This document shows, piece after piece, positions 7,003 to 36,694 of a DNA stretch of 64,000 nucleotides (its first letter is position 1; each line of letters starts with the position of its first letter). The stretch lies in contig JBNZDD010013398.1 of assembly GCA_050575255.1 (NCBI GenBank), positions 225,360 to 289,359 of the forward strand. The letters run 5' to 3'. A program made the translations under genes and the position numbers. The stretch comes from Harriotta raleighana (lineage: Eukaryota). A model generated the notes under the pieces. That model was given only the letters and a program-made list of their open reading frames with translations. It had not been told where the DNA came from and did no database searches.

Positions 7003-9429
7003 ATGGCGAATACACACAGCATTTGGGCGTCTTTCGCTTTCCTCATAATGGTATCGGGTTTAACGGCTGGACACGTTCAGTATTCAATTCCCGAGGAACT
7101 GGAACCCGGTGCCTTTGTAGGGAATATTGCTGAAGATTTGGGATTGAAGATTCGGGAGCTGGCCATTCGAAAATGTCGTTTGGTCTCTCACAATAAAATG
7201 CGATATTTAGAGGTGAATCTGGACAATGGGATTTTATTCGTAAACGAAAGAATCGACAGAGAACAGATTTGTGGACCAAGCTCGACCTGCTTCCTTTCCT
7301 TTGAGGTAACGATGGAAAACCCTTTACAAGTGCATGATTTTGAAGTCGAAATATTAGACGTAAACGACAATTCTCCTTCCTTTCCGAAGAGTTCATTTTC
7401 CATACAGATTGCAGAGTCGGTCGCTCCAGGCGCCCGTTTTCCTCTCGAGATGGCGCAAGATCCCGACGTGGGATTGAACACAGTAAACAATTACGAGATA
7501 AACACAAATGAACACTTCGGCCTAAAACAGCACACAAGAAGCGATGGAAAAAAAGTTGCGGAGTTATCCTTAGAGAAGCCTTTAGACCGCGAAAGACAGG
7601 CAAGCATTCAGCTGGTGTTGACAGCCTTTGATGATGGCCGACTGCAGAGATCCGGCACAGCTCAGATCCTCATTAATGTACTGGATGCCAATGATAACCC
7701 ACCCGTGTTTGACAGTGAGTTGTACGAAGCCAGATTGGTAGAGGATGCGCCACTGGGTACTTTAGTGACAACAGTTAAAGCCGGTGATTTAGACGAAGGA
7801 ACAAATGCGGAGGTAAGATATTCTTTCAGCAACTATGTCTCACAAACAGAGCGAGAATTGTTCGCTATAGAGCAAAACACTGGAGATATTCGACTGCAAG
7901 GGGCGCTGGATTTCGAAGAATCGCAGGTTTATGAACTGACTGTTCAAGCTGTAGACAATGGTGCGCCTGCAATGGCCGGACATTCCAAAGTTGTTGTCAC
8001 GTTGATTGATGTGAATGATAACAATCCTGAGATTAAACTCACATCAGTATCCAGTAAAGTGCGCGAGAACGCTGCACCGGGGACGGTGATAGGTGTGATC
8101 AGTGTGACAGACCGTGATTCGGGGAAAAACGGTGTGGTTCATTGTAAGATTAATGCGAATATTCCATTTAAGCTGCAGAAAAGTCGAGCAAACCTCTACA
8201 AGTTAGTCACAAGCCAAATGTTGGATCGTGAGAAGGTCCATGTATTTAACATCTCTATTTTAGCTTGGGACTCGGGATCTCCTCCTCTTTCATCTAATAA
8301 AACCCTGCAAGTGACCGTGTCTGATATCAATGACAACGCGCCCAGGTTTGACCAGCCCTCATACACCGCATATGTGATGGAGAATAACGCTCCGGGTGAC
8401 TCGATTCTATCAGTTACAGCTTTGGATCCCGATTCTGACCAGAATTCCTACGTCACCTATTCCATCCTGGAGAATCACATAAAGGATATAATCTCCTTTC
8501 CTTATATCAGCGTTGACTCCCAAAGTGGGAACGTTTACGCGCTGCGGTCCTTTGATTACGAGCAGCTCAAAAACTTTGAGCTCCAAGTCCAGGCGCGCGA
8601 TTCCGGGTCCCCGCCACTGAGCAGCAGCGCCGCAGTCACTGTGATTATATTGGATCAAAATGACAACGCTCCGGTGGTGGTTTCGCCTATAACCCGGAAC
8701 GGATCAGCAACGGTGGATCCGGTGCCTCATTCGGCAACAGCAGGATATTTGGTGACCAAGGTAATGGCGACTGATGCTGATTCTGGTCAGAATGCACGAC
8801 TTTCATACCAACTGCGTAAATCTACTAATCCAAGTCTTATTAACGTTGGTCTCAAAAGTGGAGTCATCAAGTTAATCCGAAGTGTATCGAGCCAGGATGC
8901 GACGACTCAAACCGTCCTTATCATGGTAACTGATAACGGGCAGCCAAGCCTCTCTGCTGCAGTGACTGTCGTATTTTCAATAGTTCCCAATGTAACAGAA
9001 AAATATTTTGAACGTAGTAATTTTCTGGAACACTCTAAGAATTTTTCTGATTTGAATCTGTATTTAATTGTTACATTGGCATCAACCTCCTTGATATTCC
9101 TTTTGACCATCATGGTGCTAATTGTCATCAAATGCCGCCAAGATAGTATCAATGGAGACGACTGTAATTTCTGCTGTTGCCGAATGAGAGATTCAAGGAA
9201 TAGTTTTATGCGTAGGTCTGCACCCAAAGAACCTCTGAACTATACTGGTGTTAGAGACAGTGTCCCTATACCTAGTTCTTACAATTATAGATTCAGTCTT
9301 TCTCCAGAATCTGCCAAAACCGATTTTTTATTTCTGAAAACCTACGCTCCAACCCTCCCCCATAATACACTCAAAATGTCTGATACCAATGCGGTAAAAG
9401 AATTTGGCCAGGAAAACAATAGATATTGA
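7003..9429 (+). CDS. Clustered protocadherin, single-exon type (unit 3, group A), ~808 aa
   Basis: Intact ORF from MANTHSIW: signal peptide, six EC repeats (DxNDN, LDRE, AxDxD), TM, YRFSLSPESAKTDFLFLK tail, own stop. An upstream in-frame ATG exists at 6901. Confidence 0.93.
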   Translation: MANTHSIWASFAFLIMVSGLTAGHVQYSIPEELEPGAFVGNIAEDLGLKIRELAIRKCRLVSHNKMRYLEVNLDNGILFVNERIDREQICGPSSTCFLSFEVTMENPLQVHDFEVEILDVNDNSPSFPKSSFSIQIAESVAPGARFPLEMAQDPDVGLNTVNNYEINTNEHFGLKQHTRSDGKKVAELSLEKPLDRERQASIQLVLTAFDDGRLQRSGTAQILINVLDANDNPPVFDSELYEARLVEDAPLGTLVTTVKAGDLDEGTNAEVRYSFSNYVSQTERELFAIEQNTGDIRLQGALDFEESQVYELTVQAVDNGAPAMAGHSKVVVTLIDVNDNNPEIKLTSVSSKVRENAAPGTVIGVISVTDRDSGKNGVVHCKINANIPFKLQKSRANLYKLVTSQMLDREKVHVFNISILAWDSGSPPLSSNKTLQVTVSDINDNAPRFDQPSYTAYVMENNAPGDSILSVTALDPDSDQNSYVTYSILENHIKDIISFPYISVDSQSGNVYALRSFDYEQLKNFELQVQARDSGSPPLSSSAAVTVIILDQNDNAPVVVSPITRNGSATVDPVPHSATAGYLVTKVMATDADSGQNARLSYQLRKSTNPSLINVGLKSGVIKLIRSVSSQDATTQTVLIMVTDNGQPSLSAAVTVVFSIVPNVTEKYFERSNFLEHSKNFSDLNLYLIVTLASTSLIFLLTIMVLIVIKCRQDSINGDDCNFCCCRMRDSRNSFMRRSAPKEPLNYTGVRDSVPIPSSYNYRFSLSPESAKTDFLFLKTYAPTLPHNTLKMSDTNAVKEFGQENNRY

Positions 9430-10008
9430 TTGACTCGCAGTAGTTTAATCATTTGGTGTAAGAACCGAAAGTCGACTCATATGACAGTCGATGGAATTTT
9501 TTTTAGACATAGTTTGGACCATTAAATTACTATCTTGGAGAAAATGTTCCTCCAAAGAATGAACTGTATCAATCAACACAGTGGAGACATGCAATGAGAA
9601 AATAATTATTATCAATACTAAGAGTAATACAATACGCAATACTATCTGATTGAAAATGACAGCATTGATATTCAAAGTGAGTTTCTTGGATTAAATATAT
9701 CACAGATTTTTGAAAATCAAGATGATGCACTTAATAATACCTAAAAGGAAGTGGGAAATGTATGAGTAACGCACGAAAAAGAAAATATTATTGTTTGAAG
9801 TGTAGGAAAATGCAACAATTTTAAGATCAAAATTAATATACCTTAGATGGTAATAGGTTTCCTCCACCACGATTAAAAGAAACAAAGTAATATAACTAAA
9901 ACAAACTTAATGAAATTCTACATCGAATTTGAGAATTTTGAGTGTAGTAGAGAATATAACTCATCGTTCGGACGATATTTGTGCAAGCCAGCTTTAAGGA
10001 AACGTCAG

Positions 10009-10078
10009 TGCAGTTATTGGTCGGGGCTCTTAGTGTCGCTGTGTGCCAATAAGGAGCTGAAACGCAGTGAGAGATCTA
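10009..10078 (+). promoter_or_regulatory. Pcdh CSE promoter (unit 4)
   Basis: Near-identical to the unit 3 promoter; GTGTCGCTGTGTGCCAATAAG at 10033-10053. Confidence 0.9.
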
Positions 10079-10295
10079 CCCCCTTCCCTTCACAAAGGAC
10101 AGGCTACAATCAGAGGGAGGGAAAGAGAGAAGAACAGTGCCCGTGCTTGGCTTCTGAATTAATGTACAGAGCGACTGAGGCCGAGTGATTTTGGTGTCCA
10201 AGTTGAACGATATTTGCGTTCATGAAAAAAACGGTTGTATTATGAAAAACAAAACAGCATTGGTGGAAACTGTGACGGAATTAACTCAGCCAAAG

Positions 10296-12707
10296 ATGGC
10301 GTCTTTCGCTTTCATCATAATGGTATCGGGTTTAACGGCTGGACACGTTCAGTATTCAATTCCCGAGGAACTGGAACCCGGTGCCTTTGTAGGGAATATT
10401 GCTGAAGATTTGGGATTGAAGATTCGGGAGCTGGCCATTCGAAAATGTCGGCTGGTCTCTCACAATAAAATGCGATATTTAGAGGTGAATCTGGACAATG
10501 GGATTTTATTCGTAAACGAAAGAATCGACAGAGAACAGATTTGTGGACCCAGCTCGACCTGCTTCCTTTCCTTTGAGGTAACGATGGAAAACCCTTTGCA
10601 AGTACATGATTTTGAAGTCGAAATATTAGTCGTAAACGACAATTCTCCGTTTTTTACGAAAAGCTCATTTTCCATACAGATTGCCGAGTCGGTAGCTCCA
10701 GGCGCCCTTTTTCCTCTTGAGATGGCGCAAGATACCGACTTGGGATCGAACACAGTAAACAATTACGAGATAAACACAAACGAACACTTTGGCCTAAAGT
10801 TATACACAAGAGGCGATGGAAGAAAGGTCCCGGAGTTGTCCTTAGGCAAGCCTTTAGACCGCGAAAGACAATCACGATTTCAGCTGATGTTGACAGCCTT
10901 TGATGATGGTCGACCACAGAGATCGGGCACCGCTCAGATCCTCGTTGATGTAAGAGATATCAATGACAACACACCCGCGTTTGACAGTGAGTTGTACGAA
11001 GCCAGTTTGGAAGAAGATGCGCCACTGGGTACTTTAGTGACAACAGTTAAAGCTGCTGATATAGACGAAGGAATAAATGCCGAGGTAAGATATTCTTTCA
11101 GCAACTATGTCTCACAAACAGAGCGAGAATTGTTCGCTATAGAGCAAAACACTGGAGATATTCGACTGCAAGGGGCACTGGATTTCGAAGAATCGCAGGT
11201 TTATGAACTGACTGTTCAAGCTGTAGACAATGGTGCGCCTGCAATGGCCGGACATTCCAAAGTTGTTGTCACGTTGATTGATGTGAATGATAACAATCCT
11301 GAGATTAAACTCACATCAGTATCCAGTAAAGTGCGCGAGAACGCTGCACCGGGGACGGTGATAGGTGTGATCAGTGTGACAGACCGTGATTCGGGGAAAA
11401 ACGGTGTGGTTCATTGTAAGATTAATGCGAATATTCCATTTAAGCTCCAGAAAAGTCGAGCAAACCTCTACAAGTTAGTCACAAGCCAAATGTTGGATCG
11501 TGAGAAGTTCGATGTGTATAACATCTCTATTTTAGCTTGGGACTTGGGATCTCCGCCTCTTTCATCCAACAAATTCCTGCTGGTCACAGTGTCTGATATC
11601 AATGACAACGCGCCGCGCTTTGACCAGCGCTTATACACCGCATATGTGATGGAGAATAACGCTCCGGGTGACTCGATTCTATCAGTTACAGCTTTGGATG
11701 CCGATTCTGACCAGAATTCCTATGTCACCTATTCCATCCTGGAGAATCAAATAAAGGATATTATGTCCTTTCCTTATATCAGCGTTGACTCCCAAAGTGG
11801 GAAAGTTTACGCGCTGCGATCCTTTGATTACGAGCAGCTCAAAAAGTTTCAGCTCCAAGTCCAGGCGCGGGATTCCGGGTTCCCGCCACTGAGCAGCAAC
11901 GCGGCAGTCACTGTGATTATATTGGATCAAAATGACAACGCTCCAGTGGTGGTTTCCCCTGTAACCAGGAACGGATCAGCAACGGTGGATGCGGTGCCTC
12001 AGTCGGCACCTGTAGGATACTTGGTGACCAAGGTAATGGCGACTGATGCTGATTCTGGTCAAAACGCACGGCTTTCATACCAACTTCTTAAAGCTACTGA
12101 TCGCAGTCTAATCAAAGTTGGACTCAAAACTGGGTACATCAGGTTAATTCGACGTGTATCGATCCAAGATGCCACTATGCAACGTCTCCTTATCTTGGTA
12201 ACTGATAACGGGCAGCCAAACCTCTCTTCCACAGTTACTGTCGCATTTTCAGTTGTGCCGAATGTCACAAAAAAATATTTGGAACACAGTAATGTTATGG
12301 AAATCTATAAGAATTTTTCTGATTTGAATCTGTACTTAATTATAACTTTGGGCTCAACCTCATTGATATTTCTTTTGACTATCATGGCGCTTATTGCCAT
12401 CAAATGCCTCCAAGATAGTGGCAGTGTTGTCGACTCTGTTTTATGCTGTTGCAAAATAAGAGATTCCGGGAATACGTTTACGTGGAGATCTGCACCCAAA
12501 GAATCTCTGAACTATACTGGGGTTAGGGTGAGTGTCCCTGTTCCTGCATCTTACAGATTCGGTGTTTCTCCAGAGTCTGCGAAAACAGATTTTCTGTTCC
12601 TAAAAACCTATGCTCCAACCCTACCCCAAAGCAGCCTCAAAATATCTGATACCAATGGGGAAAAAGAAATTGCCCAGGAAATAATTACTGGTGGAAATAT
12701 GTATTGA
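10296..12707 (+). CDS. Clustered protocadherin, single-exon type (unit 4, group A); alternative start at 10242
   Basis: Intact ORF with 6 EC, TM and SPESAKTDFLFLK tail. Has a 21-nt signal-peptide deletion and DVNDN->VVNDN relative to unit 3. Confidence 0.9.
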   Translation: MASFAFIIMVSGLTAGHVQYSIPEELEPGAFVGNIAEDLGLKIRELAIRKCRLVSHNKMRYLEVNLDNGILFVNERIDREQICGPSSTCFLSFEVTMENPLQVHDFEVEILVVNDNSPFFTKSSFSIQIAESVAPGALFPLEMAQDTDLGSNTVNNYEINTNEHFGLKLYTRGDGRKVPELSLGKPLDRERQSRFQLMLTAFDDGRPQRSGTAQILVDVRDINDNTPAFDSELYEASLEEDAPLGTLVTTVKAADIDEGINAEVRYSFSNYVSQTERELFAIEQNTGDIRLQGALDFEESQVYELTVQAVDNGAPAMAGHSKVVVTLIDVNDNNPEIKLTSVSSKVRENAAPGTVIGVISVTDRDSGKNGVVHCKINANIPFKLQKSRANLYKLVTSQMLDREKFDVYNISILAWDLGSPPLSSNKFLLVTVSDINDNAPRFDQRLYTAYVMENNAPGDSILSVTALDADSDQNSYVTYSILENQIKDIMSFPYISVDSQSGKVYALRSFDYEQLKKFQLQVQARDSGFPPLSSNAAVTVIILDQNDNAPVVVSPVTRNGSATVDAVPQSAPVGYLVTKVMATDADSGQNARLSYQLLKATDRSLIKVGLKTGYIRLIRRVSIQDATMQRLLILVTDNGQPNLSSTVTVAFSVVPNVTKKYLEHSNVMEIYKNFSDLNLYLIITLGSTSLIFLLTIMALIAIKCLQDSGSVVDSVLCCCKIRDSGNTFTWRSAPKESLNYTGVRVSVPVPASYRFGVSPESAKTDFLFLKTYAPTLPQSSLKISDTNGEKEIAQEIITGGNMY

Positions 12708-13335
12708 TTTACTGAGGCTATTATTTGAAATTATATCCAGGTATAATAAGAGCAGGACTAAATAAACAATCTTTGAAGGGTAGATGTATAATTCTTCTTA
12801 AGATAAAAGCTGAAGGAACTTTTTTTAATTTGAGAATTGTGCTTATCAAACATAAATGCTTGGCGTAAATGTATTTTAGTAATGTTCTTCTCGTATCCTA
12901 AAGAATGGAAATTATTTTATTTTTAGTAGATTGTTACCTGGGTCCCAACTTCAACAGCTCATATGCTAACCTCTCCAGTACCTGTACTTTTTAATTGGAA
13001 AACGCATCTGTGTAAGTTTGAATCAGGTATAAGGTACACATTTAACTATTAAGGATGCATGTATTATCTTCACAGTAGATGAAATAATGTAAGTATTTTG
13101 GTTATCGCTTGTTTCCCGCTTGCATTTGGTCTGAGTTTGATTTATAATTGTGATTATATTAATGCTTCACAATATAATGTATAAAAGCATTTTCTTTCTT
13201 GCATACTTTCAGGACAATCTATGATGGATTTGGTTGCACAACATTCCTATTGTTCACACTAAAATAATCAATATGCATGGACTCTAATTGCACTCTTCAT
13301 AAGGCTTAAGTTCGTTGCTAGATCTAAATCTTTTC

Positions 13336-14229: not shown

Positions 14230-14299
14230 TGCAGTTGTTGACCGGGACTCTTTGTGTCTCTGTCTACCAATAAGAAGCTGAGTCGCTGGGACAGATCTA
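14230..14299 (+). promoter_or_regulatory. Pcdh CSE promoter with mutated CGCT box (unit 5, pseudogene)
   Basis: GTGTCTCTGTCTACCAATAAG at 14254-14274 (CGCT->CTCT); other modules present. Confidence 0.85.
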
Positions 14300-14537: not shown

Positions 14538-16131
14538 ATGGCGAGTGCTTTGAACAACAATGCTTCTTTCATTCTCTTCTGGTCTCTTTATTCTCTTCTG
14601 GTTTCCGATTTGGTTTTCGGACAAATTCGGTACTCCATTCCCGAGGAATTGGAGCAGGATGCTTTAGTTGGGAATATCGCTGAAGATTTGGCACTGGACG
14701 TTCAGCGGTTGTCAGCTCGCAAGCTCAGACTGGTTTCCGATGATGGAAAGCGTTATCTGGAGGTAAATATGCTGAATAGGATTTTGTTTGTGAATGAGAG
14801 AATCGACAGAGAAAAGGTCTGTGGACAGAGCTCTACCTGCTTCATTTACTTTGAAGTGTCGGTCGAAAAACCTTTGGAAATGTATCGTGTCGAAGTGGAG
14901 AATTAGACATAAATGACAGTTCACCCAGTTTTCCTAAGGGTCTATTTTCCTTGCAAATATTTGAGTTGGTTGCAAGGGGAACATCCTTCCCTCTCGAGCG
15001 CGCGCATGATCCGGACGCAGGGATAAACACAATAATCACGTACCAGATAAGCCCAAATGAGCATTTTGGCCGAGCAATCGAGACGAGAAGTGATGGCACC
15101 AACACTGCTGAACTGGTTTTGCAGAAGCCTTTAGATCGCGAACAGCAGTCAACCTTTCAGCTGACGCTGACGGCCATTGATGGTGGCATCCCGCACAGAT
15201 CTGGCTCGGCTCAGGTTTTTAACACTGTCCTGGATGCTAACGACAACGGCCCCGTTTTCAGTCAAAAGATATACAGGGCGAACTTGTTAGAAAATACACC
15301 CAAGGATACCTTAGTGATCAGAATACAAGCTGTCGATTTAGATGAAAGTCAAAACGATGAGGTGAAATATTCTTTCAGTGATCGCGCTTCCCTAAAGGTC
15401 CGCGAATTATTTAATGTGGATCCGATTACGGGAGATATGAGAGTTCAAGGGTTACTGGATTTTGAAGAAAAAAATATTTGCGAACATGATGTACAAGCGG
15501 TGGACAATGCCCCGCATAATATGGAGGGATATGCTAAAGTTCCTGTCGGAATAATTGATGTCAATGATAACGCTCCCAATATAAAACTAACATAATTGTC
15601 TGGCACGGTGTCAGAAGATGCTTTTTCCGGCTATGTAATTGCTCTGATCACGGTAAGAGATCGTGATACTGGCAAGAATAGACAAGTTGATTGCCAGCTA
15701 GCGAGGAACTTGATAACGGTACTGAACAATTCCTTGAACGAAATGGACACCCTGTAACAGTTGGATATTTTTCGCCATTAAATATTTATTTATTCATTGC
15801 TTTGGGAACGAAGTCCGTGATATTTCTTGCCATATTAACTTGCCTGGTGAGCATCAAGTGTAAGCAAGACAGCAGTATCATCCAGGGGTACAACGGCTCG
15901 GCTTGTTGCTGTCTCGGGCCTCAGAGTTCAGACAATACACTTTACAGGAGACCCACGGCAAAAGAATATTTAAACTATACTGGGAGAGGGAAGACGCTTC
16001 CGATGCCTGATAAGTGTAATTTCAGTGTCTGTTTATCTCCAGAATCCTCCAAGAGTGAATTCCTGTTTCTGAAGCCCTGCAATCCAATTCTTGGTGATAT
16101 CAATTTTGGTGACGCCGGCAACTACCAATGA
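14538..16131 (+). pseudogene. Clustered protocadherin pseudogene with large internal deletion (unit 5, group A)
   Basis: 1-nt frameshift near 14901 and TAA at 15593. Sequence jumps from mid-EC4 (DCQ, ~15697) to the juxtamembrane/TM region, so EC5-EC6 are missing. Tail FSVCLSPESSKSEFLFLKP retained. Confidence 0.93.
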
Positions 16132-16772: not shown

Positions 16773-17024
16773 TCAGTTTTCCTCCTCCCCCATCATCCAG
16801 TACAAAAGCGCAGAGAGAAGCCCAGTTGTTTCTTTCTTTATGTCTCGCTGCCACGTTCAGAGCCAGGGAGCCTTTATGCTACTTATTTTTGGACCAAATA
16901 CCATTATTTATAACATATATACATATATATATGCAGAATTCGCATAACCGCTGAATTACAAAATTCAGATTATTTATTTATTTAGTTCTGATTATTTATT
17001 TTCAAAACGGATTTAGTGTGTAAA

Positions 17025-19472: not shown

Positions 19473-19939
19473 TTCACCCAGATGGGTATTTAAATTCCCA
19501 AATTCCAAATTAAGATAAATGTATTCATATGACTGTTCTATTTCGTAGACTGTAAACACATGATTCACGTGTGTGCATGTGTAGACATTTTCAACCCACC
19601 ATGTGTATCTAAATCTATAGCAAGTATACAATCCTAGATTGATATTTGGCAAAGCTATTTTGATGCATTGGACAACCTTAAACAAGTTGTGATAATCAGA
19701 TGAACAAGAGAATGATAAAAATTCGTATTGAACATATCGAAATCATATAGTTCCTCTATATTATTTGTTTTGGTGCAAAGTAGTTACTTGTTTTACTGTT
19801 AATTGCAGCATAGTTTATATCATTTCTAATCAGAGCATATGTTGTACAAAGAAGAACATAATTTATATAGTTGCAGGAAAATAAGTTAATACGTAGCCTT
19901 TCCAAAGCAGCACAAGTTTTATCAAATCTGCTTTACAGT

Positions 19940-21186: not shown

Positions 21187-21379
21187 TCAGCCCTCCCCCA
21201 TCGCCACATCGCAGGCCAGACTCAGAGAGACAGTCTGCATTTGCGCATTCTAAACCCGATCGGAGAAACAAAGGCCGAGTCTTAGCATTTCTGGATTTAC
21301 ATTCGATATTTCCATTTTAAGAGTCGCGTTTTGGTAGTATAAGGATCTAGGGTTATTTTTCAGAATATTTTAAACTCGA

Positions 21380-23857: not shown

Positions 23858-24886
23858 TTGGCATAGGTGAGGCATTCATTAGCCCGTGACAACCTGATTA
23901 TGGCCATTTCAATTCATATTATGAATTTGCAATCATCCCCTCATCGACATATATGTAATGATGATACCAGGTAACCAATTTTGAAAAGCTCCTAATACCG
24001 TAAAAAACAGAGATTACATTTTACAGTAATGGTAACATTGGTTAGTGCTCGGGGACCACCTATCACGAATTCAGTTTAATTTAGCCAAATAATCTGTTTT
24101 ATGCGCAATAATCTAACATTTTAAAACATTTGTATTTTGATAGAACAGATGATATCTGTGGCCTCGACATTACTTTCATCTAAAGTAAAATGCAACGAAG
24201 AATTCTATCATGGTTTTGTAATCCGAAAAATTCCCCCACCACCCCTCAAAGTGGTAGCACAGCATTGCAAAGCTGTTTTATTACCAGGTATGTTTCCCTC
24301 TGCCTTTGTGTTCCTGGACATAAGACTTGAAGCTATGTTCGTGGAAGGGCTCCAATGAGATGCCAATTCTACTTTCCAGGGACATGCTTATTGTCTGCTT
24401 CATTACAATGGATTAACGCAATGATGAGTATTAGGTAATTTAGGCGAACTATTTATTATTTTGATCGTATCACGTTGATCGTTGGGGAACAGAATGCAAA
24501 ATATGCTACAGCCTGTTGTTATTGTCATTGAATAATAATAAGGGATCCCAAATGAATCTTTCAAATGACACTATTCCCAATTACAGTGATGAATTGTTTT
24601 TATTACAAGCACTGGCCAAGACGAAATATTTTATTCAGTTAACACAAACGGTTTTTAAATGGCTTTGTTGGGGAAGCAGATATTATTATGCGGATAGATT
24701 CGTATAGCATATCAATACATGGGATACTTTATAATGTCAATCATATAAGATAATATAAGTAACAATGCAGTTGTTAATACATAGGAACTTGTAAAATACG
24801 AAGAATGGTATTTTGGTTCCAGGGTAGAAATATAAATTTTTCATTGGTATTAACCTTGAAGCAGTTCGCCTTTAAGGAGCGCTCAT

Positions 24887-24956
24887 TGCAATTATTGGCC
24901 AGGACTCTTTGTGTCGCTGTCTACCAATAAGGAGAGAAAACGTTCCTGGAGATCTA
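24887..24956 (+). promoter_or_regulatory. Pcdh CSE promoter (unit 8)
   Basis: TGCAATTATTGG...GTGTCGCTGTCTACCAATAAG (24911-24931)...GAGATCTA. Confidence 0.9.
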
Positions 24957-25192
24957 TCGCCCCTCCCACATAGAAGGAGCAGATCAGACAATCGCCGAGG
25001 AAGCTGGCGTTCACGTCAGGCAAACCAGACCAGCTCCGAGAGTGATCAGTCCCCCTTTATTTTGTCTATTTCCCACATTTCAATTCAGCATTTTTGGCAG
25101 ACTCGCGGATGTATTGTAACCTCAGTTGGACATACAGCAATTGGTGAGCGATTTGTTGCCTTTGTTCATATCGAAAACTGGATGCAGCAAAA

Positions 25193-27625: not shown

Positions 27626-28461
27626 TGGGAATTGACTCAATTGGGTCAGACATTAGTTAAGTTACATTTTAGATTAACTTTGATTAACATGAAGTGTCTT
27701 TGCACTCTTGTAATATACTCATTTGTTTGATGGCCAATTTGCATTGAGGAATATTTTGGTGATATTATAAACCCAACCTCTATTGTTGTTTTAGGTACAA
27801 GTGAAACACTTAATTCGGAATTGTTTTTGATGATTTTCGTTTGATCTTATTTCCTTATTGTATTAAATTGCAAATTATAAAAGGAAAATGGACAAGTCCA
27901 CGATCTAAAATAATTTTCTATCGTTTCTTACCTGATCAGTTTTCCTTCATTTTACATGTTCTTGTCACGTGAAAAGATTCATCTCATTTACTCGATTTAT
28001 GTTATTTGTCTTCTGTGTTGTTACATGTGGCAATATAATAGAAATCTTGATGGAATATTGCAAAGTTAGTTTTGTTGCAGGCATGCTATGCATTCTATGT
28101 TGAATAAGTTTTCAATCACCTTCAATTCAAAGTGCTATAAACGATGGTTGTGGTGTGGGAACCCTGGTTAAATGTTGTATAATTACGCCAAGACTCAAAC
28201 GATACTCATTTCATGCCAAATAACTTCCCACTTTTGATCAGCTAAAACGAATAGCCTTGAAAGCAACATATGATTCTACTTGTATTCATGCCTTTTTTTC
28301 TCTATGGTCATTAGAGACATCAATGAGAAATTAAAATAGGACCTCTTACCAATTAAATAAGACAACAGATATCCATAATTTACCAAGCGATATGTTGGCT
28401 ACACGATAATATATGATGGCTGATTGAGAATATAGACAGTCTAGCTTTAAATAACGTTGAG

Positions 28462-28531
28462 TGCAGTTTTGGGGCGTAACAGTTTGTGTCGCTGTCTACC
28501 AATAAGAAGCAGAAACGTTCTTGGAGATCCA
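28462..28531 (+). promoter_or_regulatory. Pcdh CSE promoter (unit 9)
   Basis: TGCAG...GTGTCGCTGTCTACCAATAAG (28486-28506)...GAGATCCA. Confidence 0.9.
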
Positions 28532-28739
28532 TCAGCACTCCTCCATCGCCATAACGCAGAGAAGAATCAAAGAGACAGCCTGTATTTGCGCCTTGGAGTC
28601 TTGATCGGACAAACAAAGGCCCAGCCTTGGTAATTAACGATCTTAATTCTGTATTTCTGTGTGTTAGTAGTCGCAATTTACGGCAACACGCAGACTATGA
28701 TGTGATCTGAATCAGTGTTTTTAAACAGAATTGGAAAGA

Positions 28740-31163
28740 ATGGCGAATTCACGTAGCGGAGAGATGTTAACTGGCATGGCGATTCAGCTCATCTTCCTGC
28801 TGTCTGCCTCGGATTTAATATGGGGATTAATTCGGTATTCGATTCCCGAGGAGATGGAGCGCGGAGCTTTTGTGGGAAATATTGCTGAAGATTTGGGCCT
28901 GAAGGTTTGGGAATTGTCTGCTCGGAAATTTGGATTGGTGTCTGATGAGAGAAAGCAATATTTCCAGGTAAACTCCGCAAATGGGAATTTGTTTGTGAAT
29001 GGGAGAATCGATAGAGAGCAGTTGTGCGGACAACGCAATGTGTGTACCCTTTCTTGCCAAGCCATGATGGAAAATCCTTTCCAAACATACCGCTTTGAAG
29101 TGGAGATCTTAGATATAAACGACAATTCACCTAGTTTCCCGATGAGCCGATATTCCTTGCAAGTGCCCGAGTCGGTTGCACCAGGGACGCGCTTCCCTCT
29201 CGAGAGCGCGCAAGACCCCGACGTGGGAACAAATGCAATCAGAATTTACGAGATCAGTCCAAACGATCAATTCGTTCTGCATGTACGGACCACAAGGGAT
29301 GGGAAGAAGGTGGCTGAATTGGTGTTAGAAAAGTCTTTGGACCGAGAACAGCAATCTAATCTTCATCTTACCCTGAAAGCTATAGATGGAGGAGAACCGG
29401 AGAGATCTGGTGTAACACAGATTATAATTGATGTGGTGGATGTCAACGATAACGCCCCTGTATTTGACAATGATTTATACAGGGCACGTTTGAAGGAAAA
29501 CTCGCCCAGGGGTACCTTGGTAATTGAAATTTACGCTGTTGATGCGGACGAAGATTCAAATGGCGAGGTGCGATATTTTTTCAGTAAACACGCTTCGAAA
29601 AAAGTGCGTGAAATATTTAGAATAGATCAGGAATCAGGAGCGATTAGAGTTCAAGGAATAATCGATTTTGAAGAATCGGATGGGTATGAGTTTTCTGTTG
29701 AAGCTATGGATAACTGCGCAGTGGCTTTGGTGGGACATTCCAAGGTTTTGGTGGAAATAATTGACGTGAACGACAACGCTCCTGAGATACAGATCACCAT
29801 ATTTTCCAGCACGGTTCCCGAGGACACCGCTCCCGAGACACTAGTAGCTTTAATCAGCGTCACAGACCGAGATTCTGGGCGAAACGGAGATGTTCAATGC
29901 CAGATTTCCACTAAAGTTCCTTTCAAACTTCAAAAGAATTCTGAGAACCATTACAAATTGGTTTCGAGTAATAAATTGGATCGTGAAACCAAACCTTTGT
30001 ACAATATATCAATATCGGCTTGGGACAATGGGTCTCCACCTCTCTCTACAAACAAATCCATGATGATATTAGTTTCTGATGTAAATGACAACGCACCACG
30101 GTTTGAAAAGCCTTCATACAATATATATGTGGCAGAAAACAATTTACCCGGGGCCTCTATTTATGTAATTACTGCCATAGACCCTGATCTGAATGAAAAC
30201 TCCGACCTTTCATATTCTGTCCTGATCCAGGATTCTGCGGTGACGTCTTATATTAGCATCAACCCAAACAATGGGAATATCCATGCTTTGCGCTCGTTTG
30301 ACTACGAAGAGCAAAAGAACTTTGAGTTTCAAGTTGAAGCCCGTGATACTGGGATGCCTTCTCTGAGTGGCACCACCAAAGTTCATGTCATTATTCTGGA
30401 TCAAAACGACAACGCCCCCGTCATTGTATCGCCGTTAACATGGAATGGATCGGCTGTTGTGGGAGATGTGCCTCTCTCAGCCTATCCAGGATACTTGGTC
30501 ACGAAGGTGGTGGCAACGGATGCCGATTCCGGTCAAAACGCACGACTTTCATACCAGGTGCTCAAAGCTACAGCTCCCAGTTTATTCAGTGTGGGGCAAT
30601 ACTCTGGAGAAATTAGAAGCGCCCGCAGTTTTTCAGACCAAACCCCAATCACACAAATTCTAGTCATCTTGGTGAAGGACAATGGGCAACCCACCCTCTC
30701 GGCTTCTGTGACGATTTTATTTTCAATGGCTGCCAATGTGACTGAAAGACTCTCTGAGCGTGCTAATTTATATCACGAAAATCCCACCTCTTTCTCTGAT
30801 CTGAATATATATTTGATTATCACCTTTGCTTCCACTTCGTTCATATTTCTGATCACCATAATTATCCTCGTCGCTGTCAAATGCCACCAATCGAGAAATA
30901 TCACATATGGCTACAAATCGACTATTTGCTGTTGGAGACTTGAGAATTCACAGGACAGGTATAATCGTCGACCAATTCGAAGGGATTGTTTGAATTACGC
31001 CGGAGTTGGAGAACGCGTCGCTGTTCCAGGTCCTTATAATTACAGGGTTTCATTGTCCCCAGAATCAGCAAAAAGTGACTTTCTGTTTCTGGGTACCTGT
31101 AATTCAACCATACCCATGAGTTCTATGAAAGCCACTGACACGAATGTGACAAAAGAATTTTAA
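28740..31163 (+). CDS. Clustered protocadherin, single-exon type (unit 9, group A)
   Basis: Intact ORF MANSRSGE..., 6 EC, TM, YNYRVSLSPESAKSDFLFLG; ends TAA TAG. Confidence 0.95.
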   Translation: MANSRSGEMLTGMAIQLIFLLSASDLIWGLIRYSIPEEMERGAFVGNIAEDLGLKVWELSARKFGLVSDERKQYFQVNSANGNLFVNGRIDREQLCGQRNVCTLSCQAMMENPFQTYRFEVEILDINDNSPSFPMSRYSLQVPESVAPGTRFPLESAQDPDVGTNAIRIYEISPNDQFVLHVRTTRDGKKVAELVLEKSLDREQQSNLHLTLKAIDGGEPERSGVTQIIIDVVDVNDNAPVFDNDLYRARLKENSPRGTLVIEIYAVDADEDSNGEVRYFFSKHASKKVREIFRIDQESGAIRVQGIIDFEESDGYEFSVEAMDNCAVALVGHSKVLVEIIDVNDNAPEIQITIFSSTVPEDTAPETLVALISVTDRDSGRNGDVQCQISTKVPFKLQKNSENHYKLVSSNKLDRETKPLYNISISAWDNGSPPLSTNKSMMILVSDVNDNAPRFEKPSYNIYVAENNLPGASIYVITAIDPDLNENSDLSYSVLIQDSAVTSYISINPNNGNIHALRSFDYEEQKNFEFQVEARDTGMPSLSGTTKVHVIILDQNDNAPVIVSPLTWNGSAVVGDVPLSAYPGYLVTKVVATDADSGQNARLSYQVLKATAPSLFSVGQYSGEIRSARSFSDQTPITQILVILVKDNGQPTLSASVTILFSMAANVTERLSERANLYHENPTSFSDLNIYLIITFASTSFIFLITIIILVAVKCHQSRNITYGYKSTICCWRLENSQDRYNRRPIRRDCLNYAGVGERVAVPGPYNYRVSLSPESAKSDFLFLGTCNSTIPMSSMKATDTNVTKEF

Positions 31164-33816
31164 TAGGAAACGATTACATGGAGCAACAGATCCTGGTTAA
31201 CATTGGTGAGGCATCGATTTAAAAATAGAATGTAATTGTTGCATAATTGCTTTTCTCTCAGGATTTAAAATTAATTTTCTGGCTTTCTAAACGGACATAC
31301 ATATTTGAGGGTACATAAGAGACCAGATTGTGATTTGACAAGATCTTCCCAATTTAGGCTAATAGAGTGACATTATATTCGACAGCTCTCATAATTACAG
31401 GTGACGTGAAGAAATTCCTGGATTGTTTTTACAGATGATTTAATTATGGATTGCATACTTATATTCTAGACTATTTTATATCCAGAGGTCATCAATCTTA
31501 ACTCTTTTCAAGCTATTGCTGTTTGTGTTTACCATTTTATCAGTTTAATGGTTCAATATTTTTAACCAATAATACTGTAGTTGTCCAATATATGTATACT
31601 GTGATTAATTGAATGCAACAGATTAACCCTACAATATAATTTTCTCTCTCCAATTAAAGCAACCAGACTCTCCAACACAAAGAGAGATGAGAACTGTGAA
31701 TGGACATTTATGGGAAAATAAGATCCCGTCAAGAGCAAACGCATACTTGTTTTCGAAGAATACAAAAGGTTTGAATCAATGACTAGCTGAAGATTTTATT
31801 GTTTAAATGCTGTAACTGCGTATCTTTTCAAAACCTTTTAAGATCCTATAAACATCTAAAAGGTCGAACAGTACTGAGGTATTTTGCAAGATTTGTAATG
31901 TCCTGAAGAATAGAGGATCATTGGGGATCACTGATAATTCTTAATTTACATTGTGTGAATATCAGTTGTTTTTACTTACAGTAACATTTGTTTGAACAAC
32001 TGAAATAGTTTAAAATTGTATATAATCATGAATTACTTCACTAATCATTGTATCCAAACGAAAAATCTGCTTAATTAGACTATGGACTATTTCTCTACAA
32101 AACCCAAAATAACAAGCATCAGAGATTTTGAAAAATATGCCTGTGGTATTACTTGTATATTATATTTAATTTAAAAAATTGTAAGCCATTTAATCGCATT
32201 AAGATGACATTAAATGGATGCTTCTTCAGTTGCTAACAAACATTTACAAGAATGATGTACTGTTTATCTACTAAGATTAAGTTTACAGTGATAAATTTCA
32301 TTTTTGTTCAAGACACGCTATTGAGCCCAGAAAAACGTTTTGCATTTAATGATATCAATCAAAATCAAAATTTTATTTATATAGCGCCTTTGAAGGAGTA
32401 TTTGCTTTGTACAATACCTGTGCTCAAATAACCATATATCATTGCATGACGTACAATCCAATCGATGTACTGTGGACAAAATCATTGTCTTCAAATTATA
32501 TTATTAAATAATGTTTCTGATAGCAAGAATCACCAGACTTGAAGAAATTGTTGAATGAAAACACAAGAGTGGCAATTTCATTTGTAACACAATCTCCCAC
32601 CTTGTCTGTAACAATATGAAGTTATGACAATTCTATTTGTGTGTCGTAAAGATCGTTTCAAATAAGATGTTTGTCGAAATGCAAAATGAACATGTTGTTG
32701 TATTTCCACAATAGTCTATTGAAAACACATCTTATTTGTATCTGATCCAGTTTCGCATCCAATTCATTGGATAATGCATTGTAATAGTAGTAGCATTTTG
32801 GCAAAGCAGCAATACATTATATTAAAACATGTAAGTGTTGACAAATTCACAAGAGTTAAAAATGTTTGTATTTTGTTGTCCAATTGTTAACACTTCATAA
32901 TATTAGTTCCAGATGAATATTTGAAAGTTATCAGATGCAATAGTAACCGGTATTCTCAATCTAGTTTGAATATAAATAATGTAGTAAACAAACCTCAGTT
33001 ATGACTGGCTAGCATTTTTATTTGTTTTCTTTGTGTATGTATGTTTTAGGATATTAAACAACATTTTACTGATACCTTTAATGTTGCCCCTCATATGCAT
33101 TTAATTGAGGCAACTTGCATCTTGACAATTATTCATCACCGAGCGGATTATAATATTTATGAGCCGAATCTGTTATACTTGATCACTTGCAGAACTCTCC
33201 CATTCTCTGTGGGGATGTTTGCAGAAGGGCCCATATGGTGAATTTTATCAGTCAGTGACAAATTAATTTGTACAATAATTACATACAAGTAGAAGATATG
33301 TAAACATGCCACTTCTGGAATTGTAAATCTCATAAAGATTCAAAAGGTCGTGCCAGAAATAGATGTACACATTTTATCATATAATTAGGATGCAATGTGT
33401 TCTGAACTTCACATCCACATTATTTTAATTCTGGTATTATTTGACTTTTTTTTAATCTATGTGAATATTATTTCCTAGGGTCTCGAGATGATTTTTTATT
33501 TAAAAAAAATTAGAAACGTAAGTAATGGTTACTGCTACTGTTGTAGTCCGGCAAAATTTCTTTTAAACTAAGGAGAAATTCAATTATAGTAGATCAATTG
33601 CTAAATTTGCTATGTAAACTATAACAAATTAATAAAAAGATGTTCTGTTTCAATTTGATAATGGAATTTAAACAGTGAAAATCTAATGGTTTGGTGTTTC
33701 AAGGTAAGACAGGAATTATTACAATTCATTTCACATATTTTGGTTGGACACTCCAAATGACTGTGGCTCACTGTTAATATTATTGTCACTACAGTCTACC
33801 TTTAAGAAATGCTTGT

Positions 33817-33886
33817 TGTAGTTATTGGCCAGTACTCTTTGTGTCGCTGTCTTCCAATAAGAACATAAAACGTCATTGGGGATCCA
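33817..33886 (+). promoter_or_regulatory. Pcdh CSE promoter (unit 10)
   Basis: TGTAGTTATTGG...GTGTCGCTGTCTTCCAATAAG (33841-33861)...GGATCCA. Confidence 0.9.
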
Positions 33887-34126
33887 TCAGCCCTCCCCAC
33901 CTCCATACGCACAACAGAGTCAAAGAGAAAGGCGAATCATTCCTGCGTTTTCAACCGTGGTGCAGTGGTCGGAACGAGATGTCTTGCCTTTTTGTTTCTT
34001 AGTTCATAGGGGGACTCGTTTCATACAGGTCCCACCCTGTAATTGGATTTAGCGATAGAATCGACCAGCGATTGCAAATAACAAGCGATGTTTTACACGT
34101 TTACACCGGGACAGAATTCGCGAGCA

Positions 34127-36520
34127 ATGGCGAAACCAGGCGGCCAGGCAGCTCTTTATATTTTCCTGCTGTGTGTCTTGCACCTCGTCACGGGTCAAAT
34201 CCGCTACACCATTCCCGAGGAAGCGGAGAGGGGTACCTTTGTGGGCAATATTGCTGGGGATTTGCGACTGAATGTTCGGACGCTGCCAGCTCGCGAGTTA
34301 CGGCTGGTCTCTTACGACAGTGAAGAGTACCTGGAGGTAAATTTGGACACTGGGATTTTACTTCTTCGCCAGAGAATTGATAGGGAACAAATCTGCGGGC
34401 AAAGCCTTTCCTGCTCCCTATCATTTGAAGTGATGGTTGAAAGCCCTTTGGAAATACATCGCGTTGAGGTGGAGATACTTGATATAAATGACAATTCTCC
34501 CAGTTTTTCTAAGAAAGAATTGTCCTTGCAGATCGGTGAATCCACTGCTCCTGGGGCTCGGTTTCCTTTGGAAAGCGCACACGATCCTGATGTTGGCACG
34601 AATGCAATCAAAACATATCAGATTAGTTCAAATGATTATTTCGGCATCAATGTTCAGAGCAGAAGCGACGGGAGTAAACGTGCTGAATTGTTACTGGAAA
34701 AGCCACTAGATAGAGAACAAGAGTCAAACCTCAAGCTGGTTCTTACAGCCATTGATGGAGGTATCCCACCCAGATCTGGAACCTCTCAGGTTGTGGTTAC
34801 TGTACTGGATGCTAATGACAACGCGCCTGTGTTTGATCATGAAATATATAGGGTGAGTTTGGCAGAAAACGCTTCGAAGAATGCATTTGTTGTTCGCGTC
34901 AAGGCTGCCGATTCAGATTCCGGTTTAAATGCTGAGGTAAAATATTCTTTCATTAACCACGGTGTGATTGATCTGTTCAGTTTGGACGAGCAAACGGGAG
35001 ATATTCGTGTACAAGGAATACTGGATTTTGAGCAGTCTCACGTTTATGAACTCGAGGTACAAGCTGTAGATAAAGGCACACCTGGTCTGGCTGGACATAG
35101 CAAAGTTTTGGTCGCAATAGTGGACGTAAACGATAATGCCCCCGAGGTAAAGCTGACCTCTGTGTCCAGTACTGTCCGTGAAAATGCATCGCCCGGGACT
35201 GTTATATGCCTAATCAGTGTGACAGATAGGGATTTTGGGAAAAACGGTCAAGTACACTGTCAGATTCCCAATAACATCCCCTTTGAACTACAAAAATCTT
35301 TGGCTAATCAATATAAATTGATTACCAGCGATAAACTAGACCGTGAGACGAATCCTACCTATAATATATCCCTATTTGCCTGGGATGCAGGGATTCCTCA
35401 GCTTTCTACACACAGAACCATTTGGGTGTCGGTTTCTGATGTGAATGACAACGCGCCGCGGTTTGCTCAGTCGGTATATACGGTCTATCTGAAGGAAAAC
35501 AATGCTCCCGGCGCCTCTATCTTTGCGGTGACGGCTATGGATCTTGATCTGGATCAGAACTCTTATGTAACATACTCCATGCTGGAGAACCAAATCCAGG
35601 GTACGTTTGCGTCTTTTCACGTCAGTGTGAACTCCAACAATGGGAATATTTACGCGCTGCATTCCTTTGATTATGAAGAACTCAAACGCTTTCAGATTCA
35701 GATTCAGGCCCGGGATTCCGGAGTGCCTCCGCTCAGCAGCAGCGTCGCAATCAGTGTGATCATACTGGATCAAAACGACAACAGACCCGTCATTATTTCA
35801 CCTCTAACGTGGAATGGGTCAGCGGCGGTGGAGGTGCCACCTGGAGCTCCATCGCCAGACTACCTGGTGACCAAGATAATCGCCACTGATGCGGATTCTG
35901 GTCAGAACGCTAGGCTATCGTACCATTTACTCCAAGCTACTGACGCCAGTTTGTTCACAGTGGGGCTGTATTCCGGAGAAATAAAAACAACGCGCAGATT
36001 TCTCGGGCAAGATACGAACACACAGAGTTTGGTGATTGAAGTCACCGACAATGGACAACCAACTCTCTCCACAAGCGTCACGGTGCTTATCTCTACGGCG
36101 CCGAATGTGACTGAGAAATACTCTGACCAGCGCCCAGTGATGGACCCAAAGCCTGATGCCACTTTTCATCTAAATCTATATTTAATTGTCATTTTGGGTT
36201 CTACGTCAATGATATTTCTAATCATCATAGTTTTGCTGATTGTCATAAAATGCCACCAAGACAGGCACATTGGTTACGACTGCTGCTGTTGGGAAACGAG
36301 GAATTTAAGGAATGTTTCTCATGGAAGAGCTACACCGAAAGAATCGCTACATTACACCGAGGTTGGTGAAAGGATTCCTATTCCTGCCACGTATAATTAT
36401 AGGGTTTCCCTTTCTCCAGAATCGGCGAAGAGTGATTTTCTGTTTCTAAAAACATACAATCAGAACATCCACAGTAGCAGCGTCACTGACACCAACGTTA
36501 ACAAACAATATTGTCAATAA
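34127..36520 (+). CDS. Clustered protocadherin, single-exon type (unit 10, group A)
   Basis: Intact ORF MAKPGGQ... (upstream in-frame ATG at 34088), 6 EC, TM, YNYRVSLSPESAKSDFLFLK. Confidence 0.95.
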   Translation: MAKPGGQAALYIFLLCVLHLVTGQIRYTIPEEAERGTFVGNIAGDLRLNVRTLPARELRLVSYDSEEYLEVNLDTGILLLRQRIDREQICGQSLSCSLSFEVMVESPLEIHRVEVEILDINDNSPSFSKKELSLQIGESTAPGARFPLESAHDPDVGTNAIKTYQISSNDYFGINVQSRSDGSKRAELLLEKPLDREQESNLKLVLTAIDGGIPPRSGTSQVVVTVLDANDNAPVFDHEIYRVSLAENASKNAFVVRVKAADSDSGLNAEVKYSFINHGVIDLFSLDEQTGDIRVQGILDFEQSHVYELEVQAVDKGTPGLAGHSKVLVAIVDVNDNAPEVKLTSVSSTVRENASPGTVICLISVTDRDFGKNGQVHCQIPNNIPFELQKSLANQYKLITSDKLDRETNPTYNISLFAWDAGIPQLSTHRTIWVSVSDVNDNAPRFAQSVYTVYLKENNAPGASIFAVTAMDLDLDQNSYVTYSMLENQIQGTFASFHVSVNSNNGNIYALHSFDYEELKRFQIQIQARDSGVPPLSSSVAISVIILDQNDNRPVIISPLTWNGSAAVEVPPGAPSPDYLVTKIIATDADSGQNARLSYHLLQATDASLFTVGLYSGEIKTTRRFLGQDTNTQSLVIEVTDNGQPTLSTSVTVLISTAPNVTEKYSDQRPVMDPKPDATFHLNLYLIVILGSTSMIFLIIIVLLIVIKCHQDRHIGYDCCCWETRNLRNVSHGRATPKESLHYTEVGERIPIPATYNYRVSLSPESAKSDFLFLKTYNQNIHSSSVTDTNVNKQYCQ

Positions 36521-36694
36521 ATCTGCAATATGAACAATTGATAGCTTGTGAGGTTTTAGGCCCTACTGTATTATAGTGTCACTTGTATTCAAATAGCAGA
36601 TCTCTCATTATCTTCTACAATACATACACTCGTGGAGAAGTGACCCTATGGCATACATTTATAATTGTATAATCAATCGGCAAGGGGATATGAT

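What the first reader, a model, noticed from the sequence alone, without database searches (positions are those of the whole stretch)
9427..36553. Fossil splice donors ~9 nt after a shared TGA in the 'single-exon' group A genes
Seen: group A 3' ends align as TGA + about 3 codons + a variably decayed 5' splice site. Unit 7: TGA TTG GCA TAG|GTGAGG (23867). Unit 9: TGG TTA ACA TTG|GTGAGG (31206; still phase 0, but behind an earlier TAA TAG). Unit 8: TGA CTC AAT TGG|GTCAGA (27645). Unit 10: TGA TAG CTT|GTGAGG (36548). Unit 6: TGA TTC ACC CAG|ATGGGT (19482; compare unit 15's live GAG|GTGGGT). Unit 4: TGA TTT ACT GAG|GCTATT. Established: single-exon cPcdh subclusters lacking constant exons exist (mammalian beta, elephant-shark epsilon). 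Inference: these genes descend from a spliced variable exon that gained a stop just before its donor. Units 7, 9 and 10 might still splice, making the constant exons a non-coding 3' UTR, either as a shared UTR or as an NMD-linked control on tail-less isoforms.
Basis: partly seen in the sequence, partly recalled or inferred. Interest (0 to 1): 0.75.

Follow-up and report, generated by a model that had tools for sequence, protein, structure and literature searches.

The report
Decayed splice donors in chimaera protocadherins
A chimaera's one-exon 'epsilon' protocadherin genes keep, just behind their stop codons, the worn remains of the splice signal that joins related genes to a shared tail, showing they descend from spliced genes, much like the leftover signals known in mammalian beta-protocadherins.

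Summary
The window is the epsilon/mu boundary of a chimaera clustered-protocadherin locus: unit 7 matches C. milii epsilon18, unit 15 matches mu5. The quoted sites are real. Fossil origin is well supported. Counted from a conserved tyrosine, the site lies exactly 55 codons downstream, phase 0, without gaps in five units, and is the best U1 match of 397 offsets (z 4.4). Live junctions of 25 spliced delta- and mu-type proteins lie at 49-57 codons. The epsilon tail motif is most like delta's. Corrections: the TGA is the true stop in only 4 of 7 intact genes; pseudogene unit 5 has a fourth GTGAGG; unit 10's site is weak. Only units 7 and 9 pair with U1 as well as live donors. Current use is untested: no RNA run was listed. 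None of 89 epsilon-type database proteins carries a constant tail. GTGAGG survives in 3 of 5 gap-free units despite near-saturated synonymous sites (P 0.0003-0.006 at the fixed site, 0.05-0.41 blind), so residual selection is possible, not shown. Mammalian Pcdh-beta is the precedent.

The parts
2941..2958 (+). u1 (epsilon pseudogene): CGA at the aligned TGA position, then three codons and a dead site (AT for GT, first base 2953)
6363..6380 (+). u2 (epsilon pseudogene): aligned TGA 6363-6365; no recognisable donor
6886..9429 (+). u3 open frame (tail 82% identical to C. milii epsilon14), ends at the aligned TGA 9427-9429; no recognisable donor behind it
10179..12707 (+). u4 open frame, ends at TGA 12705-12707
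12714..12722 (+). u4 dead site GAG|GCTATT, 55 codons from anchor 12552, U1 dG -3.1
14595..16131 (+). u5 epsilon pseudogene of a subtype closer to shark/ray epsilon-like proteins than to its window neighbours; tail stop at codon 37
16992..19472 (+). u6 open frame (orthologue of C. milii epsilon17), ends at TGA
19479..19487 (+). u6 dead site CAG|ATGGGT (+1 G lost), 55 codons from anchor 19317
21374..23857 (+). u7 open frame (orthologue of C. milii epsilon18, same stop position), ends at TGA
23864..23872 (+). u7 site TAG|GTGAGG, 55 codons from anchor 23702, U1 dG -10.0 (live range); two in-frame stops ahead of it
25148..27625 (+). u8 open frame, ends at TAG, 19 nt before the site
27642..27650 (+). 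u8 site TGG|GTCAGA, 151 nt from anchor (14 short); U1 dG -5.1; a C. milii gene model reads across the same stretch
28725..31163 (+). u9 open frame, ends at TAA (then TAG), 42 nt before the site; frame between the stops and the site is open
31203..31211 (+). u9 site TTG|GTGAGG, 55 codons from anchor 31041, U1 dG -8.6 (live range)
34082..36520 (+). u10 open frame, last epsilon gene, ends at TAA, 27 nt before the site
36545..36553 (+). u10 site CTT|GTGAGG, 150 nt from anchor (15 short, phase 0), U1 dG -4.9 (background range)
43292..43300 (+). u11 (mu) donor CAG|GTAAAT, codon 52 (comparison)
46905..46913 (+). u12 (mu) donor AAG|GTGAGT, codon 53 (comparison)
51103..51111 (+). u13 (mu) donor GAG|GTAAGT, shorter tail (comparison)
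56908..56916 (+). u14 (mu) donor GAG|GTGAGT, codon 53 (comparison)
61564..61572 (+). u15 (mu5 orthologue) donor GAG|GTGGGT, codon 53; the C. milii mu5 protein enters its constant region at this point

Best explanation
Group A is the Pcdh-epsilon subcluster, and the motif is the vestige of the phase-0 donor that ends every spliced clustered-protocadherin variable exon. Steps: (1) Shown: the site matches live delta- and mu-type junctions in position and phase, and in sequence looks like a donor. (2) Inferred: the epsilon founder was a copy of a spliced variable exon with a delta-like tail that lacked its own constant exons downstream. A stop arose three codons before the donor (codon 52) and made it a one-exon gene. 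(3) Shown in part: tandem copies then gained earlier stops and frameshifts independently (codons 37-48 in chimaeras, mostly 26-30 in sharks and rays), and the donor decayed by different changes in each copy. (4) Inferred: epsilon mRNAs are normally unspliced and end at their own poly(A) sites. u7 and u9 could leak at a low rate to the mu constant exons, giving the same tail-less protein from an NMD-prone message with no special role.
For: Family identity: u7 tail 83% to C. milii epsilon18, u15 tail 89% to mu5; the 24 epsilon-type rows form one side of a branch with SH-aLRT 100 (quick tree). Position: exactly 55 codons, no gap, in 5 of 10 units; top of 397 offsets, z 4.4, phase 0. Live junctions at 52-53 (5 mu-type) and 49-57 (20 delta-type) codons in 25 of 25 spliced proteins examined. 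u9 W-x-N-R-S falls on the same codons 47-51 as u15 without gaps. Tail motif 11-14 of 19 identical to gar delta-type versus 6-7 to mu5. Decay is patchy and independent: GT lost in 5 of 10, exonic AG lost in u5, u8, u9, u10; all 5 mu donors keep AG|GT. 0 of 89 epsilon-type proteins held show a constant-region start, against 30 of 49 delta-type. No constant-exon remnant in the window (best tblastn E 0.11, HMM E 8.4). Precedent: Pcdh-beta (PMC3601302 passage), where 3'-RACE and first-round RT-PCR in mouse cerebellum found no spliced product (PMC3431597 passage).
Against: Pure neutral decay fits less well than the origin does. Fourfold-site identity among u4 and u6-u10 is 0.32-0.49 (JC 1.1-1.7), yet identity at +1..+6 is 0.61 across 7 lineages against 0.25-0.31 at +11..+80 (partly circular for u8 and u10; 0.47 in the four-unit gap-free set u4, u6, u7, u9). 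Three of five gap-free units share the hexamer: simulated P 0.00025-0.006 at a fixed site. The tree is unrooted with three groups and lacks nu, alpha, beta and gamma, so a delta parent is not shown; the delta-like motif may simply be ancestral. A transcript that splices behind its stop gives the same protein, so the 0 of 89 count cannot exclude it.
Confidence: 0.68

Rival explanations
1. Same origin, but the donors of u7 and u9 (perhaps others) are kept by selection because they are used: splicing behind the stop to the mu constant exons makes NMD substrates that set epsilon dosage, or U1 binding alone delays the nearby poly(A) site.
For: u7 (-10.0) and u9 (-8.6 kcal/mol) pair with U1 within the range of the five mu donors (-8.3 to -12.4); only 19 of 1266 intergenic GT sites reach -8. 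GTGAGG is the only non-coding hexamer shared by 3 of 5 gap-free units over offsets 111-299. No sign of 3' gene conversion in the coding tail (fourfold identity 0.43 versus 0.32-0.49 elsewhere). u7 has no AATAAA or ATTAAA within 1500 nt of its stop. A frameshift in mouse Pcdhgc5 lowered its transcripts, attributed to NMD (PMC12981507 passages).
Against: Blind over 135 offsets the hexamer sharing has P 0.05-0.41. Two of the four GTGAGG sites (u5, u10) lost the exonic AG and pair at background level, and u5 is a pseudogene. Half the subcluster in view lost GT with genes and promoters intact. No post-stop pair of 28 aligned at the site with p below 0.13. Several other frameshifted mouse Pcdhg isoforms were not reduced (PMC6957209 passage).
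Confidence: 0.17
2. Some epsilon lineages (u9 above all) were spliced in frame until recently, giving epsilon-mu hybrid proteins; the stops are late and the donors are young fossils.
For: u9 has TGG at the TGA position and an open frame from codon 43 to the site. Late loss would explain above-neutral retention.
Against: TGA at the aligned position in 7 of 10 units, including u6, u7, u8 and u10 around u9 in the tree, makes TGG the derived state by parsimony. C. milii epsilon18 stops at the same codon as u7. 0 of 89 epsilon-type proteins has a constant tail. The C. milii orthologues of u9 and u10 were not retrieved.
Confidence: 0.08
3. Not a donor: chance, shared paralogous UTR, or another element (transcription-factor site, antisense signal) that happens to contain GTGAGG.
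For: The conserved block extends beyond the donor (TGATT upstream; +7..+10 identity 0.46).
Against: Best U1 match of 397 offsets, in phase 0, inside the 49-57 codon band of live junctions. The alternative TGAG|G register scores 1.5-5 of 9. No Rfam family in the window.
Confidence: 0.07

Closest known systems
Elephant shark (Callorhinchus milii) Pcdh-epsilon subcluster (UniRef entries epsilon14, 17, 18; Yu et al. 2008, not readable here)
   Same: Orthologous genes, same order before mu, one-exon proteins; epsilon18 and epsilon14 end at the same codon as u7 and u3.
   Different: Another chimaera species (tails 81-94% identical). epsilon17 ends earlier through a frameshift. I found no text describing donors behind epsilon stops, but could not read the primary paper.
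Mammalian Pcdh-beta retained 5' splice sites
   Same: One-exon subcluster without constant exons, lying upstream of a spliced subcluster, with a donor near the end of the variable exon; rare intercluster transcripts reported (PMC3601302 passage).
   Different: In beta each exon is said to keep a consensus site; here only 5 of 10 keep GT and 2 of 10 pair like live donors. Here every site is behind a stop, so no hybrid protein can result; the passage does not say where the beta site lies relative to the stop. Independent lineage.
Pcdh-delta variable exon (spliced single-gene subcluster)
   Same: Nearly the same tail motif (11-14 of 19) and a junction at 49-57 codons, 56-57 in the ray-finned fishes examined.
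   Different: Delta keeps an open frame to its donor and its own constant exons. Only one hit (P0130) is named delta by its source; I labelled the rest by motif and tree.
Pcdh-mu variable exons (group B, u11-u15)
   Same: Phase-0 donor at codon 52-53; nearest downstream constant region any epsilon donor could reach.
   Different: Open frame, AG|GT in 5 of 5, U1 pairing -8.3 to -12.4; tail motif less like epsilon.

Membership tests
Pcdh-epsilon subcluster | Orthology to C. milii epsilon genes | tested here: met
   u7 pairs with epsilon18 and u6 with epsilon17 (support 100), u3+u4 with epsilon14 (99); tail identities 81-94%
Pcdh-epsilon subcluster | One open frame from signal peptide through six cadherin repeats, membrane segment and short tail to a stop | tested here: met
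   7 of 10 units intact, 812-847 codons stop to stop; u1, u2, u5 broken
Pcdh-epsilon subcluster | Lies upstream of mu with no constant exons of its own between | tested here: met
   u15 = mu5; no constant-region match in the window by tblastn or HMM; very diverged non-coding exons would be missed
Pcdh-epsilon subcluster | Own promoter with the conserved sequence element | tested here: met
   Element found before all 15 units (decayed before u1) and a 16th at 63898
Variable-exon 5' splice site (homology) | Same position and phase as live delta/mu donors | tested here: met
   55 codons, phase 0, versus 49-57 in 25 of 25 spliced proteins examined; junctions read from proteins, not DNA
Functional U2-type donor | GT at +1/+2 and U1 pairing in the range of live donors | tested here: inconclusive
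   Met by u7 and u9; GT but weak in u5, u8, u10; not met in u1, u2, u3, u4, u6. MaxEntScan was not available; U1 duplex energy used instead
Functional U2-type donor | Junction-spanning transcripts | not testable with these tools
   No RNA run listed; no genome held, so constant exons could not be located
Pcdh-beta-type retained donor | Consensus donor in every member of the subcluster | tested here: not met
   5 of 10 keep GT, 4 of 10 GTGAGG; works like beta's in kind but is further decayed
Pcdh-beta-type retained donor | Rare splicing to the next cluster's constant exons | not testable with these tools
   needs RNA data
Regulated unproductive splicing (AS-NMD) | Stop more than about 50-55 nt upstream of the last junction | tested here: inconclusive
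   Stops are 9-54 nt before the site; mu constant region is 140 codons; multi-exon structure assumed from alpha/gamma (PMC2764143 passage)
Regulated unproductive splicing (AS-NMD) | Isoform rises on NMD inhibition and site is conserved across orthologues | not testable with these tools
   no RNA data and no orthologous DNA; paralogue test equivocal

The most novel reading that the evidence does not exclude
The donors behind the stops of u7 and u9 have been kept by selection since before the chimaera families split. They route part of each epsilon transcript, without changing its protein, onto the mu constant exons, creating an NMD-sensitive isoform (or a U1-dependent delay of polyadenylation) that tunes the dose of tail-less protocadherins. 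This would be a whole-subcluster case of a coding splice site turned into a purely regulatory one.
Probability: 0.15. Interest if true: 0.65.

Novelty: new variant of a known kind. Interest (0 to 1): 0.36.

Why it matters
One-exon protocadherin subclusters arose at least twice in jawed vertebrates (beta in lobe-finned fishes and tetrapods, epsilon in cartilaginous fishes; PMC2764143 passages). The vestige shows how epsilon became one-exon: a stop three codons ahead of a still visible donor, then independent shortening of the tail. The delta-like tail offers a testable origin for a subcluster described as having no bony-vertebrate orthologue. That is a neat footnote for specialists, not a new mechanism. 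It would matter more if RNA data showed regulated use of u7 or u9.

Tried and rejected
No genome is held, so constant exons and acceptors could not be located. RNA search of 21300-31290: no RNA holder listed; this is no evidence either way, and no reads could be laid. The cluster look-up for the u7-u10 proteins and four database proteins could not be made, so the C. milii orthologues of u9 and u10 are missing. Yu et al. 2008 is not held; it and its supplements may already mention these sites. Earlier findings: nothing by place, words or sequence. Epsilon-specific constant-exon remnant between u10 and u11: none. Alternative register TGAG|G, suggested by the mu exon ends: rejected, 1.5-5 of 9. 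3' gene conversion as cause of the shared motif: not seen in the coding tail; a tract under about 40 nt would be missed. Unanchored local alignment of post-stop 300-nt stretches: 1 of 28 pairs below p 0.05 (u8-u9, p 0.032, elsewhere in the UTR); the site itself was the best alignment in 2 of 28 pairs, p 0.13 and 0.37. Stop read-through plus splicing: u7 and u10 have a second in-frame stop before the site. Rfam: 0 matches. Tandem repeats: 3 short arrays, none at the sites. The profile search of 1.84 billion representatives gave 30 unnamed hits; those with the closest motif were delta-type, none an epsilon-type spliced form. Literature: 8 searches; none of the listings showed a paper on donors behind epsilon stops; (4 of 6 terms) returned 0.
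Full report
WHAT THE WINDOW IS. Fifteen tandem plus-strand cadherin units, each behind the same promoter element. The tail of unit 7 is 83% identical to C. milii Protocadherin epsilon18 (best of 43 hits); the tail of unit 15 is 89% identical to C. milii mu5 (best of 14 hits). So the source is a chimaera other than C. milii (inference from these identities), group A (u1-u10) is the end of the epsilon subcluster and group B (u11-u15) the start of mu. u1, u2 and u5 are broken; seven epsilon units are intact. A quick maximum-likelihood tree of 50 variable-exon proteins (12 window units and 38 of the 144 database proteins then held; pseudogenes left out; the careful search did not finish; five mu rows were cut late) puts 24 epsilon-type, 11 mu-type and 14 delta-type rows each on one side of a branch (SH-aLRT 100, 99, 97) and pairs u7 with epsilon18, u6 with epsilon17 and u15 with mu5.

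CHECK OF THE OBSERVATION. All quoted sites are present at the stated coordinates. The aligned TGA is found in 7 of 10 units (u2, u3, u4, u6, u7, u8, u10), is TGG in u9, CGA in u1 and not clearly alignable in u5. It is the working stop in 4 of 7 intact genes; u8, u9 and u10 stop 19, 42 and 27 nt before the site. GT is kept in 5 of 10 units, GTGAGG in 4 of 10; 4 of 9 plus-strand GTGAGG in the window lie here.

A TEST THAT DOES NOT RELY ON THE MOTIF. I counted from the conserved Tyr of the tail motif (Phe in u5). In u4, u5, u6, u7 and u9 the site lies exactly 165 nt (55 codons) downstream without any gap; in u5 this may include compensating small indels. u8, u10, u2 and u3 are 14, 15, 12 and 12 nt short. 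For the five gap-free units, offset 165 is the best match to the U1 consensus among 397 offsets (6.1 of 9; mean 2.77, sd 0.76, z 4.4) and is phase 0; the runner-up (126) is a coding stretch without GT. In 25 spliced proteins picked from the hits for having a constant region, the junction lies at 52-53 codons (5 mu-type) and 49-57 codons (20 delta-type; 56-57 in the nine ray-finned fish proteins). These junctions are read from proteins; unspliced database forms continue with Val at the same point, as phase 0 predicts. The mu donors of the window lie at 52-53 except the shortened u13. For u8, a C. milii automatic gene model (P0002) reads 13 of 22 identical residues across this stretch in a shifted frame, including the residues over the site, which implies the same GTC decay in both species (inference from protein).

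WHERE EPSILON CAME FROM. A profile of the seven intact epsilon tails found 163 proteins (120 listed): shark and ray epsilon-like one-exon proteins first, then delta-type proteins of bony vertebrates, the closest spliced relatives (one of them, P0130, is named 'protocadherin delta 1' by its source, the rest I labelled by motif and tree). The 19-residue motif of four epsilon units is 11-14 identical to the gar delta-type protein and 6-7 to mu5. Among 173 proteins held, 0 of 89 epsilon-type show a constant-region start after the motif, against 30 of 49 delta-type. Stops are scattered: 59 of 78 epsilon-like database proteins stop at codons 26-30, others at 33-52, and two gene models run longer. 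C. milii epsilon17 ends early by a frameshift relative to u6. The tail beyond about codon 30 is thus dispensable. The simplest history (inference): a spliced, delta-like variable exon without its own constant exons gained a stop at codon 52; copies then shortened further and let the donor decay. The tree is unrooted and lacks nu, alpha, beta and gamma, so a delta parent is a lead only.

IS IT STILL USED? Not testable here: no genome, no RNA run listed. U1 duplex energies (stand-in for MaxEntScan; U1 end recalled): mu donors -8.3 to -12.4; u7 -10.0, u9 -8.6; u5 -5.2, u8 -5.1, u10 -4.9; u4 and u6 lack GT. Of 1266 intergenic GT sites, 120 reach -5 and 19 reach -8. So only u7 and u9 look usable. 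For selection: fourfold sites among u4 and u6-u10 are near saturation (JC 1.1-1.7; identity 0.32-0.49 along the exon with no clear 3' rise), while +1..+6 identity is 0.61 over seven lineages against 0.25-0.31 at +11..+80 (0.47 against 0.25-0.37 in the gap-free set u4, u6, u7, u9). On a star tree with 0.45-0.65 changes per branch, three of five identical hexamers arise with P 0.006-0.00025 at a fixed site but 0.41-0.05 at any of 135 offsets. Position and donor-likeness were expected beforehand, which favours the first figure, but the motif itself prompted the test. Against use: two of four GTGAGG sites have lost the exonic AG, one is in a pseudogene, half the units lost GT, and unanchored alignments of the UTRs find nothing significant at the site. 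If u7 or u9 spliced to the 140-codon mu constant region, their stops would sit well ahead of the last junction, assuming several constant exons as in alpha and gamma (PMC2764143), and the recalled 50-55-nt rule predicts NMD. A stable shared UTR is therefore unlikely. Mouse data on NMD of variable-exon stops are mixed (PMC12981507 reduced; PMC6957209 several not reduced).

COMPARISON WITH WHAT IS KNOWN. [quoted passage not shown] The epsilon case works like this but is further decayed and lies behind stops. It fails the 'donor in every member' feature, so it is a variant, not the same thing. What I saw of papers: passages found by term search in PMC2764143, PMC7811963, PMC3601302, PMC3431597, PMC7339444, PMC4978886, PMC8787164, PMC1852091, PMC12981507, PMC6957209 and PMC10849722; no whole text and no supplements. 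Yu et al. 2008, Wu and Maniatis 1999, Tasic 2002 and Wang 2002 were seen only as citations. None of the passages says outright that epsilon lacks constant exons; that rests on the C. milii proteins ending at these stops, on epsilon's absence from the constant-exon list in PMC2764143, and on recall. Eight searches showed no paper on epsilon donors, but the primary paper could not be read.

VERDICT. Observation real with corrections; fossil-donor origin about 0.9 in total (0.68 plain vestige, 0.17 kept for use, 0.08 young fossil); not a donor 0.07. New variant of a known kind; interest 0.36.

Noticed in passing
P0103, P0105, P0133, P0135 (shark and ray proteins): A delta-like clade annotated as about 860-886-residue proteins without constant region; three of four end in a read-through pattern that suggests an in-frame donor about 71-75 codons from the anchor. 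Could be an intermediate between spliced delta and one-exon epsilon, or unspliced models of a spliced gene. P0141 groups with bony delta (support 89) and has an apparent donor at 57.
   Followed up: partly
window 447, 3683, 6740, 10033, 14254, 16727, 21141, 24911, 28486, 33841, 40578, 44182, 48446, 54183, 58844, 63898: Promoter element with CGCT core and CCAAT is nearly invariant before every unit, including pseudogenes u2 and u5 (u5 has CTCT), with about 100 nt of 70-85% similarity around it; the last one marks a 16th unit beyond the window.
   Followed up: partly
window 14595-16131: Pseudogene u5 scores higher against shark/ray epsilon-like proteins (best 575 bits) than against its window neighbours (412-528); in its shifted frame the tail ends like the shark subtype that stops at codon 39. 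It also lacks a large part of the middle repeats.
   Followed up: partly
window 6886-12707 and 3922-6365: u3 and u4 are recent duplicates or converted copies (fourfold distance 0.16); the spacers after u2 and u3 are 81-86% alike.
   Followed up: no
window 12707-36548: All seven measured stop-to-site distances are 9-54 nt, inside the 50-55-nt NMD boundary; relevant only if a site spliced to a single local 3' UTR exon. Most shark stops lie further upstream.
   Followed up: no
window 31206-31261: A pyrimidine-rich AG acceptor-like stretch ends about 56 nt after the u9 site; probably too short for an intron.
   Followed up: no
window 36690-38900: Two similar repeat-like stretches and a purine-rich segment between u10 and u11, probably retroelement remnants.
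   Followed up: no
P0050 versus P0047: A shark mu-type isoform lacks three residues inside the constant region, suggesting an alternative splice site there.
   Followed up: no
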